This document shows, piece by piece, positions 46,146 to 58,873 of a stretch of DNA of 59,175 bases. Made by a program: the position numbers and the translations under genes. This DNA comes from a virus (Duplodnaviria > Caudoviricetes): IMG/VR virus record IMGVR_UViG_3300028392_000072, positions 1 to 59,175 of that record; one strand, written 5' to 3'. Within the stretch, counting starts at the first letter, position 1; each line of letters opens with the position of its first letter. A model generated the notes under the pieces. That model was not told where the DNA came from and made no database searches. It worked only from the letters and a program-made list of their open reading frames with translations.

Positions 46146-47783
46146 TTAGACTAAAGAAAAACCTTCTTTCAAACTTACCGTTTTATTGAAACTTTTACCA
46201 TCAGTATCTAAAATATAATACCCCTTTCTCATCATTTGAACTGGCTCCTTGACGTTTAAAACGTGTGGTTCAAAGATTGCCTTATCATTAATTATAAGTG
46301 AATCTGTGTTGATGTAATTGATAAAATCATCTTCATTTTTATCCGGTGATTCATCATTGAATAATCTATCATATTCATTTACATTAACTCTAACTCCATG
46401 TTCAGCAGATACCCAGTGAATAGTTCCTTTAATCTTTCTTTCAAAAGTCATACCAGATCTTGTTAAAGGGTCGTAAGTACATCTAATTTCAATAACTTCT
46501 CCACTATCATTCTTGATAACTTCATTCGCTTTAATAACATAAGCACCTTTCAATCTTACTTCACCACCCAACTTTAATCTGTGGAATTTGTTATTAGCTT
46601 CTTCTCTGAAATCTTCCGATTCAATAAATAACTCACCACTAAAAGGAATCATTCTAGTACCAGCACTTTCATCACCAGGATTGTTTTCAACTTCAACCAT
46701 TTCAGTTCCATCATCCCAATTAGTAATAACTAACTTAACGGGATTCATTACACCCATCAATCTATTAGCAACTACATTCAAATCAGTTCTCAAACATTCT
46801 TCTAAAAGCAAGTAAGAAACAACTGACTCTTTTCTAGTAACAGAAATTCTATCACAGAAATCTTTAATAGCATTTGGTGTAAAACCTCTTCTTCTTAAAC
46901 CAGAAATAGTTGGCATTCTTGGATCATTCCAACCATCTACAAATCCTTCTTCAACTAATCTTTTTAATTTTCTCTTTGACATAACTGTATAGTCAATGTT
47001 CAAACGAGCAAACTCAGTTTCTTCTGGAAGTGGATTTTCTAAATCACAATTTTCCAAGACCCACATATATAAAGGTCTATGAACTTCAAATTCTAAAGTA
47101 CATAAAGAATCAGTGATACCTTCTTTATAATCTGAAAGTGGATGAGCAAAGTCATACATTGGATAAATCTTCCAAGTATCACCAGTTCTGTGGTGTGACT
47201 TACTGATAATTCTATAAAGAACCGGATCTCTTAAAATCATATTAGGAGAAGTCATATCAATATTGGCTCTCAAGATTTTAGAACCTTCAGAGAATTCACC
47301 TAATATCATTCTATTAAATAGGTCTAAGTTTTCTTCTATACTTCTAGATTTATAAGGTGAGTCTTTACCAACTGAAGTTGGTGTTCCTTTTAAGTTAGCA
47401 ATTTCTTCAGATGTTGAATCATCAACATAAGCTAATCCTTTCTTAATTAAAGTAACAGCACATTCATAAAGAAAATCAAAATAATCAGAGGTGTATCTGA
47501 TTTCACTTGGAGTATAACCAAGCCATTTTATATCTTCAATCATTGAATCTACAAACTCTTTTCTTTCAGTTGTTGGATTCGTGTCGTCAAATCTTAACAC
47601 ACACGGAGCATTATACTTTTCTGCTAATCCAAAATTTAATATAATGGATTTAGCGTGACCTAAGTGAAGACCACCCACAACTCTACCATCGTTTAGTATA
47701 GCTCCATTTGGTTCTGGTGGAAAACGAAGTTTTAACTTATCAAGATTTCCTTTTTCTAATATTTTTTCTTCTATGAAATTCAT
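46146..47783 (-). CDS. glnS: glutaminyl-tRNA synthetase
   Basis: RFPPEPNG, HLGH, RFDDTNP, YPMYDFAH, SLCTLEF, MSKR, KGTIHWVS. Confidence 0.95.
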   Translation of the reverse strand: MNFIEEKILEKGNLDKLKLRFPPEPNGAILNDGRVVGGLHLGHAKSIILNFGLAEKYNAPCVLRFDDTNPTTERKEFVDSMIEDIKWLGYTPSEIRYTSDYFDFLYECAVTLIKKGLAYVDDSTSEEIANLKGTPTSVGKDSPYKSRSIEENLDLFNRMILGEFSEGSKILRANIDMTSPNMILRDPVLYRIISKSHHRTGDTWKIYPMYDFAHPLSDYKEGITDSLCTLEFEVHRPLYMWVLENCDLENPLPEETEFARLNIDYTVMSKRKLKRLVEEGFVDGWNDPRMPTISGLRRRGFTPNAIKDFCDRISVTRKESVVSYLLLEECLRTDLNVVANRLMGVMNPVKLVITNWDDGTEMVEVENNPGDESAGTRMIPFSGELFIESEDFREEANNKFHRLKLGGEVRLKGAYVIKANEVIKNDSGEVIEIRCTYDPLTRSGMTFERKIKGTIHWVSAEHGVRVNVNEYDRLFNDESPDKNEDDFINYINTDSLIINDKAIFEPHVLNVKEPVQMMRKGYYILDTDGKSFNKTVSLKEGFSLV

Positions 47784-47811
47784 AATGTTTATATTTTTAT
47801 ATGTTGTTTAG

Positions 47812-47883
47812 TTGGAAAAACAGGGATCGAACCTGTATCTTCTGATTCAAAGTCAGAAATAATAACCATTATACTATTTTCCA
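47812..47883 (-). tRNA. tRNA-Gln (TTG), very AU-rich
   Basis: TGGAAAA/TTTTCCA; TCTGA-CTTTGAA-TCAGA. Confidence 0.85.
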
Positions 47884-47910
47884 ATATTACTACTATCTAG
47901 AGTAGTTTTG

Positions 47911-47991
47911 CTATCCGGGTAGGACTCGAACCTACACGCCTTTCGGCATCCGCTTCAAAGGCGGATGTGGCTGCCATTTCACCACCGGACA
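47911..47991 (-). tRNA. tRNA with Gln anticodon (TTG) and Leu-like body with long variable arm
   Basis: TCCGC-CTTTGAA-GCGGA; V-arm GCC-GAAA-GGC; G73. Confidence 0.85.
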
Positions 47992-48048
47992 ATTTGTTAT
48001 ATTAAATTTCTAAATGTCAAACTCATTCTACCGGAATTTGTATGAAAT

Positions 48049-48083
48049 AAAAAAACCCTGTCCAAAAAGATTGAACAGGGTTT
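48049..48083 (-). terminator. attenuator terminator 1 (upstream of tRNA-Gln x2 + glnS)
   Basis: minus strand AAACCCTGTTCAA-loop-TTGGACAGGGTTTTTTT. Confidence 0.8.
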
Positions 48084-48111
48084 GTAAAGTTTACACAATA
48101 CTATTCCATTA

Positions 48112-48162
48112 TCAATCTGTTCGATTAATTTGTTGTTGCTGGAATTGTGTTGTTGTTCTCAT
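48112..48162 (-). CDS. Gln-rich leader peptide MRTTTQFQQQQINRTD
   Basis: 5 Gln codons; 3' end GAACAG/AGATTGA complementary to terminator 5' arm CTGTTC/TCAATCT; TATCTTTG promoter element at ~48206-48213. Confidence 0.8.
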   Translation of the reverse strand: MRTTTQFQQQQINRTD

Positions 48163-48196
48163 TTTAATTTCTTTTTTTACAATATTAGTTATATTT

Positions 48197-49024
48197 TTAT
48201 TCATACAAAGATATAAAATTTTTTCCATATTTACCGACCACATAGTCTAAATATATCTTTATGTCTTTCTTGTATATAACTTTTATTTCATATGGGAAAT
48301 ATGAAATTTTAGCATTTGTTAAATCCGATTCAAAGTTCTTAATTTCCACATACTCATCATTAACTATAAAATCTGGATAAAATAAATGTTTTTTATTTTT
48401 ATAAAAATATTCAAATCCTTTTTTATTTCTTTCAATTTTTATATTATGATCAATACAATATATTAAATATGCTAATTCATAACTACTATCCAACCAATAA
48501 CCTTTATACCACCCTGACTTACCTCTACTACTTCCTTTTTTAATACCACCTGATATCTCTAACCAACATTTTTTATGATACTTTTGTTCTCTGTATTTTT
48601 GATTAACTCCACATTCTCCACATTTTAAACAAGTAAATTGTATTATCTTCTTATCTCTTTTAGGCGGGATAAACATATTTCCATTTAAAATTAACGAATT
48701 TCTTATTTTACTTTTTGTTTCTTCAGATAGTGTTCTTTGTCTAGAACATTTATCAGAACAATATTTTCTTAAAATTTGTTTATTTTTATCTCTTTCAAAT
48801 TCAGATATCGTAGATTCAACCTCAAATTTAGTATTACATCTTAAACAATTTCTAATTTCTACAACTCTATCAACTTTATTACAACCTTTAAATAACTTAC
48901 TAAGATTTTCTTTTCTTTTCTCAAAATTTGGATTTTCATCACAACACGCAACATGTGAAGCAAATCCTTGTTGTTTTTCAACGAATATTAATTTTTTACA
49001 CCATTTACATTCTTTTATATACAT
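48197..49024 (-). CDS. homing-type endonuclease (Zn fingers + TnsA-like PD-(D/E)XK)
   Basis: CxxC pairs; DSSYELAY, FYPDF, VEIK. Confidence 0.7.
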   Translation of the reverse strand: MYIKECKWCKKLIFVEKQQGFASHVACCDENPNFEKRKENLSKLFKGCNKVDRVVEIRNCLRCNTKFEVESTISEFERDKNKQILRKYCSDKCSRQRTLSEETKSKIRNSLILNGNMFIPPKRDKKIIQFTCLKCGECGVNQKYREQKYHKKCWLEISGGIKKGSSRGKSGWYKGYWLDSSYELAYLIYCIDHNIKIERNKKGFEYFYKNKKHLFYPDFIVNDEYVEIKNFESDLTNAKISYFPYEIKVIYKKDIKIYLDYVVGKYGKNFISLYE

Positions 49025-49076
49025 AGATTATATATTAAAAATTAAACGGTCCCTATCAAAAACGAACCCAAACATG

Positions 49077-49152
49077 CGGATCTAATGGGATTCGAACCCA
49101 CCTGATCTTCCGAGTGACAGTCGGACGGACACACCAAGCATCCCCTAGATCC
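49077..49152 (-). tRNA. tRNA-Asp (GTC), atypical D-arm
   Basis: TCCGA-CTGTCAC-TCGGA; G73; G at position 8. Confidence 0.85.
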
Positions 49153-49161
49153 ATATTTTTG

Positions 49162-58230: not shown

Positions 58231-58234
58231 ATTT

Positions 58235-58337
58235 TGTGAATGTGGTAGGGTATTCTCCTACAGATGTGGTGGTTATCTACTTTCCATTATCCACTCTAGT
58301 CATTCGGCTAGTGCTGTTGTAGTTTATCAGCATTCAC
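58235..58337 (-). ncRNA. tRNA-like structured RNA of unclear identity
   Basis: terminal GTGAATG/CATTCAC; T-like arm GTAGG-AGAATAC-CCTAC; occupies a slot in the tRNA array. Confidence 0.5.
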
Positions 58338-58348
58338 ACATTCTTTTG

Positions 58349-58427
58349 TACCCCAGGTAGGATTCGAACCTACATTTTCAGTTCCGTTACGATTAGTCGC
58401 TTAGAAGGCGACCTCGGCTACTGAGGC
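58349..58427 (-). tRNA. D-armless tRNA-Arg (TCT)-like
   Basis: GCCTCAG/CTGGGGT; 8-nt linker TAGCCGAG; GTCGC-CTTCTAA-GCGAC; 22-nt variable region; canonical T-arm. Confidence 0.75.
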
Positions 58428-58433
58428 ATTTTG

Positions 58434-58512
58434 TCGGTACGATAGGACTTGAACCTACATTTGCAACACCATTACGAATATCCACATTATCAGTGTGGCT
58501 CGGTACGCACCG
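58434..58512 (-). tRNA. D-armless tRNA-Ile (GAT)-like
   Basis: CGGTGCG/CGTACCG; linker TACCGAG; CCACA-CTGATAA-TGTGG; 23-nt variable region; T-arm. Confidence 0.75.
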
Positions 58513-58527
58513 TTTTATTTCTTTTTG

Positions 58528-58598
58528 AGGACCGGGTGGGTTACGATCCCACTTACTACACGTTAACAGCGTGTTGCTTGCCACTAAGCTTCCAGTCC
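58528..58598 (-). tRNA. tRNA-Asn (GTT), atypical T-loop ATCGTAA and U73
   Basis: ACACG-CTGTTAA-CGTGT. Confidence 0.8.
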
Positions 58599-58611
58599 AA
58601 ATTTCAAACAT

Positions 58612-58643
58612 AAAAAAACCCTCAGTTTTTGACTGAGGGTTTT
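58612..58643 (-). terminator. attenuator terminator 3 (upstream of the 10-gene tRNA array)
   Basis: minus strand AAAACCCTCAG-TCAAAAA-CTGAGGGTTTTTTT. Confidence 0.85.
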
Positions 58644-58671
58644 GGATATCTTTTATAAAAATTTGTTTACA

Positions 58672-58782
58672 TTAATTGACAAATCCTTTAAATAGATCAA
58701 AACCCTCACAAGGTCTAATACATAACGTATTATTCACCACTGTCAGTGTATTCATGTTCATATTTAAATTAATTGTTGTCAT
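58672..58782 (-). CDS. leader peptide MTTINLNMNMNTLTVVNNTLCIRPCEGFDLFKGFVN
   Basis: first 23 codons use only the amino acids of the downstream tRNAs; TGAGGGTTTT (58699-58708) is a perfect 10-nt complement of the terminator 5' arm. Confidence 0.85.
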   Translation of the reverse strand: MTTINLNMNMNTLTVVNNTLCIRPCEGFDLFKGFVN

Positions 58783-58833
58783 TGTGTATATATATATTAA
58801 AAAGGGTTTGTTCCTTTTGGTTATTTTGTTATT

Positions 58834-58873
58834 ATTTTATACAAAAATAGATAAAAGTTTTATATCTGCCTAA
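58834..58873 (-). promoter_or_regulatory. Bacteroidota-type promoter for leader 3 (plus TAATATATA at ~58791-58799)
   Basis: TTAGGCAGATATAAAACTTTTATCTATTTTTGTATAAAAT. Confidence 0.75.

What the first reader, a model, noticed from the sequence alone, without database searches (positions are those of the whole stretch)
46146..58873. Phage tRNA operons gated by leader-peptide attenuators whose codons match the tRNAs they control
Seen: three minus-strand tRNA clusters share the layout promoter > 16-36 aa ORF > intrinsic terminator > tRNAs. In each, the leader's 3' part is complementary to the terminator's 5' arm, and the leader's control codons match that cluster's anticodons. Established: this is the logic of ribosome-mediated attenuation (trp/his/thr leaders), known for biosynthetic and synthetase operons. 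Inference: the phage senses shortage of specific charged tRNAs (starvation, or host anticodon-nuclease defences such as PrrC/RloC/PARIS) through ribosome stalling and transcribes replacement tRNAs only then. I am not aware of this being described for phage tRNA arrays.
Basis: partly seen in the sequence, partly recalled or inferred. Interest (0 to 1): 0.97.

Follow-up and report, generated by a model that had tools for sequence, protein, structure and literature searches.

The report
Codon-matched attenuators gating phage tRNA genes
In this piece of a huge freshwater phage, each block of tRNA genes lies behind a tiny coding sequence rich in the codons those tRNAs read, followed by a switchable transcription stop, which looks like a gauge that lets the phage make a tRNA set only when ribosomes run short of it.

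Summary
All three minus-strand tRNA clusters (58598-57726, 49370-49076, 47991-47811) are preceded by a 36, 31 or 16 aa ATG-ORF. Each ORF is followed by a 12-13 bp hairpin with a T-run, 5-61 nt before the first tRNA. The ORFs are enriched in codons read by their own cluster.

I found 63 such units in 14 huge-phage records, including LR756502, LR745206, LR756504 and LR756501. In all 9 records tested, the true leader-to-cluster pairing beats every permutation, up to 1 of 40320. Where cluster membership is reshuffled, leader composition follows.

Each leader's 3' part pairs with its own terminator's 5' arm. The spacing fits a stalled-ribosome switch.

Best reading (about 0.8): ribosome-mediated attenuation applied to tRNA genes, acting as a per-codon-set supply gauge. 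No expression data exist. The polarity and the physiological trigger are inferred. Eight literature searches found no description of this arrangement. I class it as a new variant of a known mechanism, of high interest.

The parts
58842..58873 (-). Promoter-like element of unit A (TTAGG..N..TATTTTTG). It contains the 27-nt repeat shared with unit B.
   Evidence: Exact 27-nt repeat at 58847-58873 and 49585-49611, 0 expected by chance. The motif TT[TA]G-N17-23-TAnnTTTG occurs upstream of 30 of 52 leaders against 2.5% of random windows. Reading it as a Bacteroidota promoter rests on a recalled consensus.
58672..58782 (-). Leader ORF A, 36 aa plus stop. The control codons are codons 2-20 (58779-58723): Thr, Asn, Leu, Met and Val.
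   Evidence: 20 of 35 codons are read by cluster A anticodons.
58698..58716 (-). Region 2 of unit A, the antiterminator strand. It pairs with 58643-58630.
   Evidence: RNAduplex -16.2 kcal/mol, p 0.007 against 300 shuffles. The pairing forms in the fold made without the terminator's 3' arm.
58608..58643 (-). Intrinsic terminator A: 12 bp stem, 5-nt loop, T-run.
57726..58598 (-). tRNA cluster A: Asn GTT, two Rfam-only tRNAs (58512-58434, 58427-58349), Leu TAG, Val TAC, a weak tRNA-like stretch (58051-57985), Thr TGT, Leu TAA, Met CAT.
49580..49611 (-). Promoter-like element of unit B.
49430..49525 (-). Leader ORF B, 31 aa plus stop. The control codons are codons 10-19 (49498-49469): Gln, Pro and Asp.
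   Evidence: There is a sub-threshold His_leader match at 49484-49370 (31 bits against a cut-off of 49).
49446..49458 (-). Region 2 of unit B. It pairs with 49401-49389.
   Evidence: RNAduplex -9.1 kcal/mol, p 0.12 alone. The same TAACT:AGTTA pairing is kept in 9 homologous Pro/Asp units.
49370..49407 (-). Intrinsic terminator B (13 bp stem, T-run). It ends 5 nt before the first tRNA.
49076..49370 (-). tRNA cluster B: Gln TTG, Pro TGG, Asp GTC.
48112..48162 (-). Leader ORF C, 16 aa plus stop. The control codons are codons 6-11 (48147-48130), five of them Gln.
   Evidence: Eleven homologous Gln leaders carry 4-7 Gln codons.
48105..48119 (-). Region 2 of unit C. It spans the stop codon and pairs with 48080-48067.
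   Evidence: RNAduplex -9.6 kcal/mol, p 0.083 alone. The AGATTGA:TCAATCT pairing, or a covarying equivalent, is seen in homologues.
48046..48083 (-). Intrinsic terminator C (13 bp stem, T-run).
47811..47991 (-). tRNA cluster C: an 82-nt tRNA with anticodon TTG and a long variable arm, then a standard tRNA-Gln TTG.
46146..47783 (-). GlnRS-type aminoacyl-tRNA synthetase gene. It starts 28 nt after cluster C, so it is probably in the same attenuated transcript.
   Evidence: Pfam PF00749 (1.6e-92), PF03950 and PF20974.

Best explanation
These are ribosome-mediated (leader-peptide) transcription attenuators placed in front of tRNA genes.

Proposed mechanism:
1. Host-type RNA polymerase starts at a Bacteroidota-style promoter, or arrives from the tRNA cluster upstream.
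2. It transcribes a short ORF whose middle part is a run of the codons read by the tRNAs encoded just downstream.
3. If those codons are decoded quickly, the ribosome runs on to the stop codon. There it covers or sterically blocks region 2, the terminator hairpin forms, and transcription stops 4-60 nt before the first tRNA.
4. If charged cognate tRNA is scarce, the ribosome stalls on the control codons. Region 2 starts about 13 nt downstream and so stays free. It pairs with the terminator's 5' arm, and the polymerase reads on into the tRNA genes. In unit C it also reads into GlnRS.

The product, tRNA, then relieves the stall. Each module is therefore a negative-feedback gauge of decoding capacity for its own codon set.

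Shown here in silico: the anatomy, the codon/anticodon co-variation, the cognate-specific antiterminator and the spacing. Inferred: translation of the leaders, the direction of the switch and the physiological trigger. The likeliest trigger is loss or insufficiency of host tRNAs during infection.
For: 1. Anatomy in the window.

2. Co-variation.
- My pipeline looks for a hairpin with a T-run at most 400 nt before an ARAGORN tRNA, and an ATG-ORF ending 15-50 nt before the hairpin.
- It gave 63 units in 14 records: 17 in the window plus LR756502 and LR745206, 35 in IMG/VR records, and 11 in LR756504 and LR756501.
- The true leader/cluster pairing is the single best of all permutations in 9 of 9 records tested. 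The counts are 1/6, 1/5040, 1/5040, 1/720, 1/120, 1/5040, 1/5040, 1/40320 and 1/6.
- For 20 of 20 amino acids, leaders hold more codons of that amino acid when the cluster has its tRNA.

3. Reshuffled clusters are tracked by their leaders.
- KKKKK precedes Lys x5.
- LSLCLSLSLSL precedes Leu Leu Ser Cys Ser.
- AMIIRMRIIR precedes Arg Ile Met.
- HQLSHSRRLSS precedes Ser His His Arg Ser.
- GAYEAGYAYEG precedes Tyr Glu Gly Ala.

4. Matching holds at codon-box level: Arg AGR versus CGN, p 0.005; Ile ATA versus ATY, p 0.0016.

5. Antiterminator.
- 26 of 36 units have a leader:5'-arm duplex with p <= 0.05 against shuffles.
- The mean is -12.7 kcal/mol for cognate arms against -8.2 for non-cognate arms, and 31 of 52 leaders bind their own arm better than 95% of non-cognate arms.

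6. Geometry over 52 units.
- From the last control codon to the start of region 2: median 13 nt (IQR 11.8-16).
- Region 2 ends a median of 9 nt before the stop codon.
- From the stop codon to the terminator: 17-36 nt.
- From the terminator to the first tRNA: median 14 nt, which leaves no room for a separate promoter.

7. A ribosome-mask folding model. The probability that the 5' arm is sequestered is 0.68 with the ribosome stalled and 0.43 with it at the stop codon. The stalled value is the higher in 43 of 52 units, Wilcoxon p 5e-7.

8. The leader travels with the tRNAs, not with GlnRS. GlnRS genes without upstream tRNAs (L019, L022, L025) have no Gln leader.

9. Coverage. 11 of 13, 43 of 46 and 50 of 59 tRNAs lie behind a unit in the window, LR756502 and LR745206. 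The exceptions are mostly single tRNA-Met(CAT) genes.

10. The best non-tRNA Rfam hits on all three units are classical attenuator families, all below cut-off: Phe_leader, His_leader and trpB.
Against: - There is no expression, Term-seq or ribosome data. No RNA run was listed for the locus, so translation and regulated read-through are untested.
- In the window, the antiterminator duplexes of B and C are not significant on their own (p 0.12 and 0.083).
- For unit A the footprint model shows no difference between the stalled and terminating ribosome (0.98 against 0.95). Its switch rests on a steric and kinetic argument only.
- No anti-antiterminator (1:2) hairpin is evident. An untranslated leader is predicted to read through (0.63), unlike the trp operon.
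- The stop-to-terminator gaps (median 23 nt) fall in the range where a terminating ribosome can itself weaken a terminator in E. coli. Distance alone therefore does not fix the polarity.
- Some clusters lack a visible unit: L020, and L053 and parts of L052 and L057 in LR756501.
- The records are related and their units are partly homologous. The p-values are per record and are not phylogenetically corrected.
- ARAGORN misses or mis-calls several unusual tRNAs.
Confidence: 0.8

Rival explanations
1. The same parts work with the opposite polarity, as in pyrBI. A ribosome that translates the leader quickly stays close behind the polymerase and, sitting at the stop codon 17-36 nt before the hairpin, prevents the terminator from forming. 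Stalling uncouples the two and allows termination. tRNA clusters would then be expressed only while their codons are being read well.
For: The stop-to-terminator gap has a median of 23 nt. In E. coli the tR2 terminator is repressed by a nearby stop codon and reaches full efficiency only beyond about 30 bp, with values of 0.12-0.8 at 17-18 bp (section 9 of PMC4824070 read).
Against: This does not explain the conserved, cognate-specific complementarity between the leader's 3' part and the terminator's 5' arm. It does not explain the 13-nt spacing from control codons to region 2. It would give positive feedback, with more tRNA made when tRNA is plentiful, which has no obvious use.
Confidence: 0.07
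2. The attenuators are real, but what they sense is amino-acid starvation or general translation stress, as in the first reader's starvation scenario, rather than tRNA supply. The tRNA genes would be one part of a stress regulon.
For: A stalled ribosome cannot tell missing tRNA from uncharged tRNA. Classical leaders respond to amino-acid supply (established knowledge). Unit C also controls a GlnRS gene.
Against: Extra tRNA does not relieve amino-acid shortage. The control codons track the isoacceptors present, at codon-box level for Arg and Ile, not only the amino acids. Leaders are absent from GlnRS genes that lack upstream tRNAs.
Confidence: 0.08
3. The short ORFs and hairpins are not a switch. 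The hairpins simply end small upstream transcripts or stabilise pre-tRNA 5' ends. The ORFs are untranslated or encode micro-proteins with another role. The codon match would be a by-product.
For: There is no direct evidence of translation. Bacteroidota lack Shine-Dalgarno signals (recalled), so ribosome binding cannot be judged from sequence. A few clusters have no unit.
Against: The true pairing is the unique best permutation in 9 of 9 records. Leaders follow reshuffled clusters. Ser codons switch between the AGY and TCN boxes while staying Ser. With 4-20 nt between T-run and tRNA in most units, read-through is the only visible route to the tRNAs.
Confidence: 0.03
4. This is direct tRNA sensing without translation, like a T-box. 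Uncharged tRNAs would pair through their anticodons with the codon runs and stabilise the antiterminator.
For: Codon/anticodon matching is also the logic of T-box specifier codons (established knowledge).
Against: No T-box family match was found at the gathering threshold or at E <= 1. The leaders are complete ATG-to-stop ORFs holding 5-19 control codons for up to about 10 different tRNAs, kept in frame across divergent records. No element for binding the tRNA's NCCA end is evident.
Confidence: 0.02

Closest known systems
Leader-peptide transcription attenuators of amino-acid biosynthesis operons (trp, his, leu, thr, ilv, pheA)
   Same: A short ORF with a run of regulatory codons, an intrinsic terminator, and a mutually exclusive antiterminator that uses the terminator's 5' arm. 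The regulatory codons sit about one ribosome half-footprint upstream of region 2. There are sub-threshold Rfam resemblances to Phe_leader, His_leader and trpB.
   Different: The regulated genes are tRNAs, not enzymes. A single leader mixes codons for up to about 10 different tRNAs. No 1:2 anti-antiterminator is evident, so an untranslated leader is predicted to read through. Modules occur in series inside one tRNA array. The setting is a phage genome.
pheST (pheM leader) attenuator controlling phenylalanyl-tRNA synthetase in E. coli (recalled)
   Same: Leader-peptide attenuation applied to a component of the translation apparatus that acts on the sensed tRNA. Unit C likewise lies upstream of a GlnRS gene.
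   Different: Here the tRNA genes come first, and the leader goes with them rather than with the synthetase.
T-box riboswitches
   Same: They sense the state of a specific tRNA by codon-anticodon matching and switch between a terminator and an antiterminator.
   Different: A T-box binds tRNA directly, uses a single specifier codon, needs no translation and regulates synthetase, biosynthesis and transport genes. No T-box match is found here, and the sensors here are ORFs.
pyrBI attenuator (ribosome proximity blocks the terminator)
   Same: A leader ORF ends close to an intrinsic terminator, with gaps in the range where a terminating ribosome can interfere.
   Different: pyrBI has no antiterminator helix and senses polymerase pausing, not codon decoding. 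Here a cognate-specific antiterminator is present.

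Membership tests
Ribosome-mediated (leader-peptide) transcription attenuator | A short ORF with start and stop codons immediately upstream of the regulated genes | tested here: met
   The leaders are 36, 31 and 16 aa in the window. Across 52 units the range is 15-46 aa, median 29.
Ribosome-mediated (leader-peptide) transcription attenuator | A cluster of regulatory codons cognate to what the operon supplies | tested here: met
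   The true pairing is the best permutation in 9 of 9 records. 20 of 20 amino acids are enriched when their tRNA is present. Matching holds at codon-box level for Arg and Ile.
Ribosome-mediated (leader-peptide) transcription attenuator | An intrinsic terminator between the leader and the regulated genes | tested here: met
   Hairpins of 8-17 bp (median 13) with a T-run, a median of 14 nt before the first tRNA.
Ribosome-mediated (leader-peptide) transcription attenuator | An antiterminator helix that competes for the terminator's 5' arm | tested here: met
   26 of 36 units at p <= 0.05 against shuffles. Cognate arms average -12.7 kcal/mol against -8.2 for non-cognate arms. In the window, A is significant alone; B and C are not.
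Ribosome-mediated (leader-peptide) transcription attenuator | Geometry in which a stalled ribosome frees the antiterminator and a terminating ribosome blocks it | tested here: inconclusive
   The spacing is a median of 13 nt, and the stalled state sequesters the arm more than the stop state in 43 of 52 units. Window unit A shows no difference in the model. Stop-to-terminator gaps also allow direct ribosome interference.
Ribosome-mediated (leader-peptide) transcription attenuator | An anti-antiterminator (1:2) or pause hairpin that synchronises ribosome and polymerase | tested here: inconclusive
   No consistent 1:2 pairing appears in the folds. A conserved GG..TATTGT element in Gln leaders could be a pause site, but that consensus is recalled.
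Ribosome-mediated (leader-peptide) transcription attenuator | Read-through that depends on leader translation and on charged-tRNA supply | not testable with these tools
   No RNA run was listed. Reporters or in vitro coupled assays are needed.
Rfam leader families (Phe_leader RF01859, His_leader RF00514, trpB RF04312) | A score at or above the family's gathering threshold | tested here: not met
   26.4 bits against 55; 31 against 49; 26.5 and 25.8 against 59.
T-box riboswitch | A match to the T-box covariance model (specifier loop plus T-box sequence) | tested here: not met
   No T-box hit at the gathering threshold on the whole window, nor at E <= 1 on the three units.

The most novel reading that the evidence does not exclude
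Huge Bacteroidota phages of the Mahaphage group run nearly their whole tRNA complement (43 of 46 genes in LR756502) through a set of paralogous leader-peptide attenuators. Each carries a codon barcode for one block of tRNAs. The phage would thus measure, codon set by codon set, whether ribosomes in the infected cell are being served, and would transcribe only the tRNA blocks that are short. This would be the first case of tRNA gene transcription controlled by translation of the cognate codons. It could act as a built-in response to host tRNA depletion or to anticodon-nuclease defences.
Probability: 0.7. Interest if true: 0.92.

Novelty: new variant of a known kind. Interest (0 to 1): 0.9.

Why it matters
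How phage tRNA genes are regulated is largely unknown, and why large phages carry so many tRNAs is still debated.

A leader-peptide attenuator in front of tRNA genes closes the shortest possible feedback loop, because the gene product is the molecule the sensor reads. It also shows that attenuation can be multiplexed, with one leader carrying codons for up to about ten tRNAs. It implies that these phages treat tRNA supply as a regulated, demand-driven resource.

The hypothesis is directly testable with small reporters and codon swaps. It offers ready-made, orthogonal sensors for individual tRNA pools. It also gives a sequence signature for predicting which tRNAs belong to one transcription unit in uncultivated phages.

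Tried and rejected
- The sigma-70 promoter scan was uninformative: 99 sites against 92.4 expected. I used the shared repeat and a Bacteroidota-style motif instead.
- ARAGORN at relaxed thresholds or with introns gave many doubtful calls. None were used in any statistic. The anticodons of the odd tRNA-like genes in cluster A remain unassigned.
- The MAFFT alignment of 12 Gln units misaligned the stems, so I did not run the count of structure pairs or build a covariance model. I used alignment-free duplex tests instead.
- No RNA holder was listed for window 49000-58900. All 24 runs are DNA, from freshwater or lake metagenomes.
- GlnRS and GluRS tblastn searches against the phage collection found only the four LR75xxxx huge phages as relevant relatives. 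The other hits (44-52% and below 39% identity) were not followed.
- One pipeline hit was spurious: in L029 the hairpin after a 74-aa gene gave the 'leader' MLTINYRH. It was kept in the G003 permutation and dropped from the 52-unit analyses.
- Hairpins without a qualifying ORF were not counted as units (L008; L056).
- One further unit in L055 was seen by eye only and is not in any count.
- Whether Bacteroidota hosts or unrelated phages use the same device was not tested.
- Eight literature searches found no paper describing leader-peptide attenuation of tRNA genes. They cover open-access PMC and bioRxiv only.
- For Al-Shayeb 2020 (PMC7162821) I saw passages from a term search: 0 hits for attenuat, leader or terminator in the main text. 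Its supplements could not be seen and might bear on tRNA annotation.
- For Li 2015 (PMC4824070) I read the outline with abstract, and section 9.

Full report
WHAT IS IN THE WINDOW

The 59,175-base window is a whole virus contig. ARAGORN and Rfam place 11 tRNA genes in three minus-strand clusters inside the reported range:
- A, 58598-57726: Asn GTT, Leu TAG, Val TAC, Thr TGT, Leu TAA, Met CAT.
- B, 49370-49076: Gln TTG, Pro TGG, Asp GTC.
- C, 47991-47811: two tRNAs with anticodon TTG.

A more permissive Rfam scan adds two tRNAs to A, at 58512-58434 and 58427-58349.

The three strongest terminator-like sites of the region lie just upstream of the first tRNA of each cluster, at 58643-58615, 49407-49376 and 48083-48053. 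Stems are 12-13 bp. The region holds 15 such sites against 3.2 +/- 1.7 in shuffles.

An ATG-ORF ends 22-28 nt before each hairpin:
- A, 58782-58672: MTTINLNMNMNTLTVVNNTLCIRPCEGFDLFKGFVN.
- B, 49525-49430: MKTINVNIAQVNPQPQDQDSKEVTNYVFTIS.
- C, 48162-48112: MRTTTQFQQQQINRTD.

Units A and B are each preceded by the same exact 27-nt element, with 0 expected by chance. It ends in a TAnnTTTG box, which I recall as the Bacteroidota -7 consensus. Unit C has only a -7-like box.

The ORF after cluster C (47783-46146) has the domain set of glutaminyl-tRNA synthetase. A GluRS-type gene lies at 57064-55562.

CODON MATCH IN THE WINDOW

I used ARAGORN default calls and strict wobble rules. The number of codons read by each unit's own cluster is:
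- A: 20 of 35, including 18 of codons 2-20.
- B: 7 of 30, all within codons 10-19.
- C: 5 of 15.

Among 522 background ATG-ORFs of 15-40 codons in the contig, 3, 1 and 3 reach the observed best-10-codon score. These counts include the leaders and their nested starts.

The nearest public relatives are two uncultured huge phages, LR756502.1 (642 kb) and LR745206.1 (635 kb). The source paper places genomes of this size in the Mahaphage clade and predicts Bacteroidetes hosts (passages seen).

I located all their tRNAs and fetched the regions. A fixed pipeline was then run. It looks for a hairpin with a T-run at most 400 nt before a tRNA, and an ATG-ORF ending shortly before the hairpin.

Each genome has seven units. 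Three are homologues of A, B and C. Four are types absent from the window:
- ..IETIGYTGYEGAYSE.. or ..SYESYYEE.. before Glu/Tyr tRNAs.
- ..ISVGVIAIGAGS.., using ATA codons, before Ile(TAT)/Gly/Gly, with Gly and Ala further on.
- ..KHKHFSKLNKWF.. before Phe/His/(Trp)/Lys.
- ..TSSRSRSSKS.. before Arg(ACG)/Ser/Arg(TCG).

In a 7x7 matrix of leader codons against cluster anticodons, the true pairing is the single best of 5040 permutations in both genomes.

WIDER SAMPLING

GlnRS relatives in IMG/VR (58-97% identity) gave 19 more units.

Fetching all main tRNA regions of four of those records gave 25 hairpin hits. One of these is spurious and eight duplicate units already seen.

GluRS led to two more distant huge phages, LR756504.1 (47% identity) and LR756501.1 (39%). 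These gave 8 and 3 units, plus one seen by eye.

That makes 63 pipeline units in 14 records. In all 9 records with at least 3 units, the true pairing is the unique maximum over all permutations. The counts are 1/6, 1/5040, 1/5040, 1/720, 1/120, 1/5040, 1/5040, 1/40320 and 1/6.

For 20 of 20 amino acids, the mean number of that residue in the leader is higher when the cluster has the tRNA.

The most telling cases are rearrangements, where leader composition follows a change in cluster membership:
- KKKKK precedes five Lys tRNAs.
- SHNHFNKSTFSNKS precedes Phe Phe Ser Ser Asn Asn His.
- LRQLVLEQLIE precedes Leu Arg Leu Met Glu Ile Leu.
- HQLSHSRRLSS precedes Ser His His Arg Ser.
- LSLCLSLSLSL precedes Leu Leu Ser Cys Ser.
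- AMIIRMRIIR precedes Arg Ile Met.
- GAYEAGYAYEG precedes Tyr Tyr Glu Glu Glu Gly Ala.

Matching reaches the codon-box level: AGR versus CGN for Arg (p 0.005) and ATA versus ATY for Ile (p 0.0016). Units are partly homologous, so these p-values are not phylogenetically corrected.

Ser control codons switch between the AGY and TCN boxes while remaining Ser. This points to selection on decoding rather than on RNA sequence.

THE SWITCH

When the terminator's 3' arm is withheld, the 5' arm pairs with a stretch in the leader's 3' part. In the Gln type, this stretch spans the stop codon.

Alignment-free tests support this:
- 26 of 36 units have a leader:5'-arm duplex at p <= 0.05 against 300 shuffles, with median z of -2.55.
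- Cognate arms bind at -12.7 kcal/mol on average, against -8.2 for arms of unrelated types.
- 31 of 52 leaders bind their own arm better than 95% of non-cognate arms.
- Divergent Gln units keep the pairing with different sequences (AGATTGA:TCAATCT, TAGATTGAT:ATCAGTCTA, GTTCCGG:CCTGGAAC, AACTCAAGCTT:AAGCCTGGGTT).

The geometry over 52 units:
- Region 2 starts a median of 13 nt (IQR 11.8-16) after the first base of the last control codon.
- Region 2 ends a median of 9 nt before the stop codon.
- The stop codon lies 17-36 nt before the hairpin.
- The hairpin ends a median of 14 nt before the first tRNA.

In a partition-function model with a 31-nt ribosome mask, the probability that the 5' arm is sequestered is:
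- 0.68 with the ribosome stalled at the last control codon.
- 0.43 with the ribosome at the stop codon.
- 0.63 with no ribosome.
The stalled value is the higher in 43 of 52 units, Wilcoxon p 5e-7.

Within the window, B (0.60 against 0.31) and C (0.53 against 0.32) follow this pattern. A does not (0.98 against 0.95). In A the stop codon sits in the apical part of a long antiterminator hairpin. A terminating ribosome there would block the structure only sterically or kinetically, which is inference.

CONTEXT

The motif TT[TA]G-N17-23-TAnnTTTG lies within 130 nt upstream of 30 of 52 leaders, against 2.5% of random windows. Units lacking it mostly follow another tRNA cluster directly, so they are internal attenuators in series.

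In the window, a 275-aa ORF with no Pfam hit is inserted between cluster B and the Gln leader. Relatives have the two adjacent.

GlnRS genes that lack upstream tRNAs (L019, L022, L025) have no Gln leader, so the leader belongs to the tRNAs.

Most tRNAs lie behind a unit: 11 of 13 in the window, 43 of 46 in LR756502 and 50 of 59 in LR745206. The exceptions are chiefly single tRNA-Met(CAT) genes. That would make sense if they are initiator tRNAs, which elongation stalling cannot sense. This is inference.

Exceptions exist. L020 has no unit for its Gln tRNAs, and several clusters of the 735-kb phage show none.

INTERPRETATION

The parts and their co-variation fit ribosome-mediated attenuation, with the unusual target of tRNA genes. 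I put this at about 0.8.

Because the product is the sensed molecule, each module would be a negative-feedback gauge of decoding capacity for one codon set.

A shortage of tRNA seems a more sensible trigger than amino-acid starvation, whether it comes from host tRNA turnover or cleavage or from a codon-usage mismatch. Nothing here tests that.

The main mechanistic rival is reversed, pyrBI-like polarity. It is allowed by the short stop-to-terminator gaps, but it does not explain the cognate antiterminators.

COMPARISON AND NOVELTY

No unit reaches the gathering score of any Rfam leader family, and there is no T-box match. The best sub-threshold hits are nonetheless attenuator families: Phe_leader, His_leader and trpB.

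Eight full-text searches found nothing on leader-peptide control of tRNA genes. The huge-phage paper's main text has no mention of attenuation, leaders or terminators.

I therefore rate it a new variant of a known kind of mechanism. It appears to be undescribed within the open-access literature searched. It is of high interest because it is unexpected, general across a phage clade, and immediately testable.

LIMITS

- All evidence is computational.
- tRNA calling in these phages is imperfect.
- The records are related.
- No expression data could be found.
- Supplementary files of the cited papers could not be seen.

Noticed in passing
window 36063-36468 (-), with flanks 35765-37105: A full-length GOLLD RNA (RF02032, 265 bits). 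It is preceded by two tandem copies of the same promoter-like element used by the leaders (37105-37028 and 37017-36940) and by about 430 nt of unassigned sequence. It is followed by two odd tRNA-like genes, 36052-35976 (called with a 4-base anticodon) and about 35850-35794, and a terminator-like hairpin.
   Followed up: partly
window 47910-47991 (-); L001 3323-3407; L002 1818-1899: An 82-85 nt tRNA with a UUG (Gln) anticodon and a long, class-II-like variable arm. It is conserved in both close relatives and sits next to the phage GlnRS gene. Its charging identity is unclear.
   Followed up: partly
window 48085-48111 (-) and homologous Gln units: Gln-type leaders share a conserved GG..(N)..TATTGT element between stop codon and terminator. 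In 8 of the 12 units its spacing fits the G-11/G-10 ... T-1/G+1 elemental pause consensus, which I recall. It could be a polymerase pause that synchronises the ribosome with the polymerase.
   Followed up: no
window 37193-37266 (-) with promoter-like element about 37355-37320: A tRNA-Met(CAT) with its own copy of the promoter-like motif but no leader ORF or terminator. Single Met(CAT) genes are likewise the main tRNAs without a unit in the relatives.
   Followed up: partly
window 48197-49024 (-): A 275-aa ORF with no Pfam hit is inserted between tRNA cluster B and the Gln leader. In relatives the Gln leader directly follows cluster B. It may be a mobile endonuclease-type insertion, but this was not tested.
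   Followed up: no
window 57976-58059 (-) and 58235-58335 (-): Inside cluster A there is an 84-nt tRNA-like gene with a good acceptor and T-arm whose anticodon could not be assigned (19.6 bits in Rfam). There is also a roughly 100-nt stretch closed by GTGAATG...CATTCAC that matches no family.
   Followed up: partly
window 52493-53244: Four tandem copies of a 185-189 nt unit (63-70% identity to the reference copy) inside ORF 53294-52176 (-), which hits the DUF4379 treble-clef zinc-finger domain.
   Followed up: no
all leader ORFs (window and loci L001-L058): Leaders of all types begin alike, with M-(K/T/N)-(T/N)-(I/L)-(N/T).. (for example ATGAAAACAATTAAC). This suggests that the modules are paralogues that diverged in their control codons. 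It also means every leader first needs Asn, Thr and Ile decoding.
   Followed up: no
window 49667-49698 (-): A second promoter-like element (TTTGG..TATTTTTG) lies about 55 nt upstream of unit B's own promoter-like element. It is followed by a weak hairpin and a T-run at about 49660-49625.
   Followed up: no
L058 (LR756501.1 690585-690737): ARAGORN calls two adjacent tRNAs with a CTA anticodon, which would read the TAG stop codon, in the 735-kb phage. This may hint at stop-codon reassignment or suppression in that genome.
   Followed up: no
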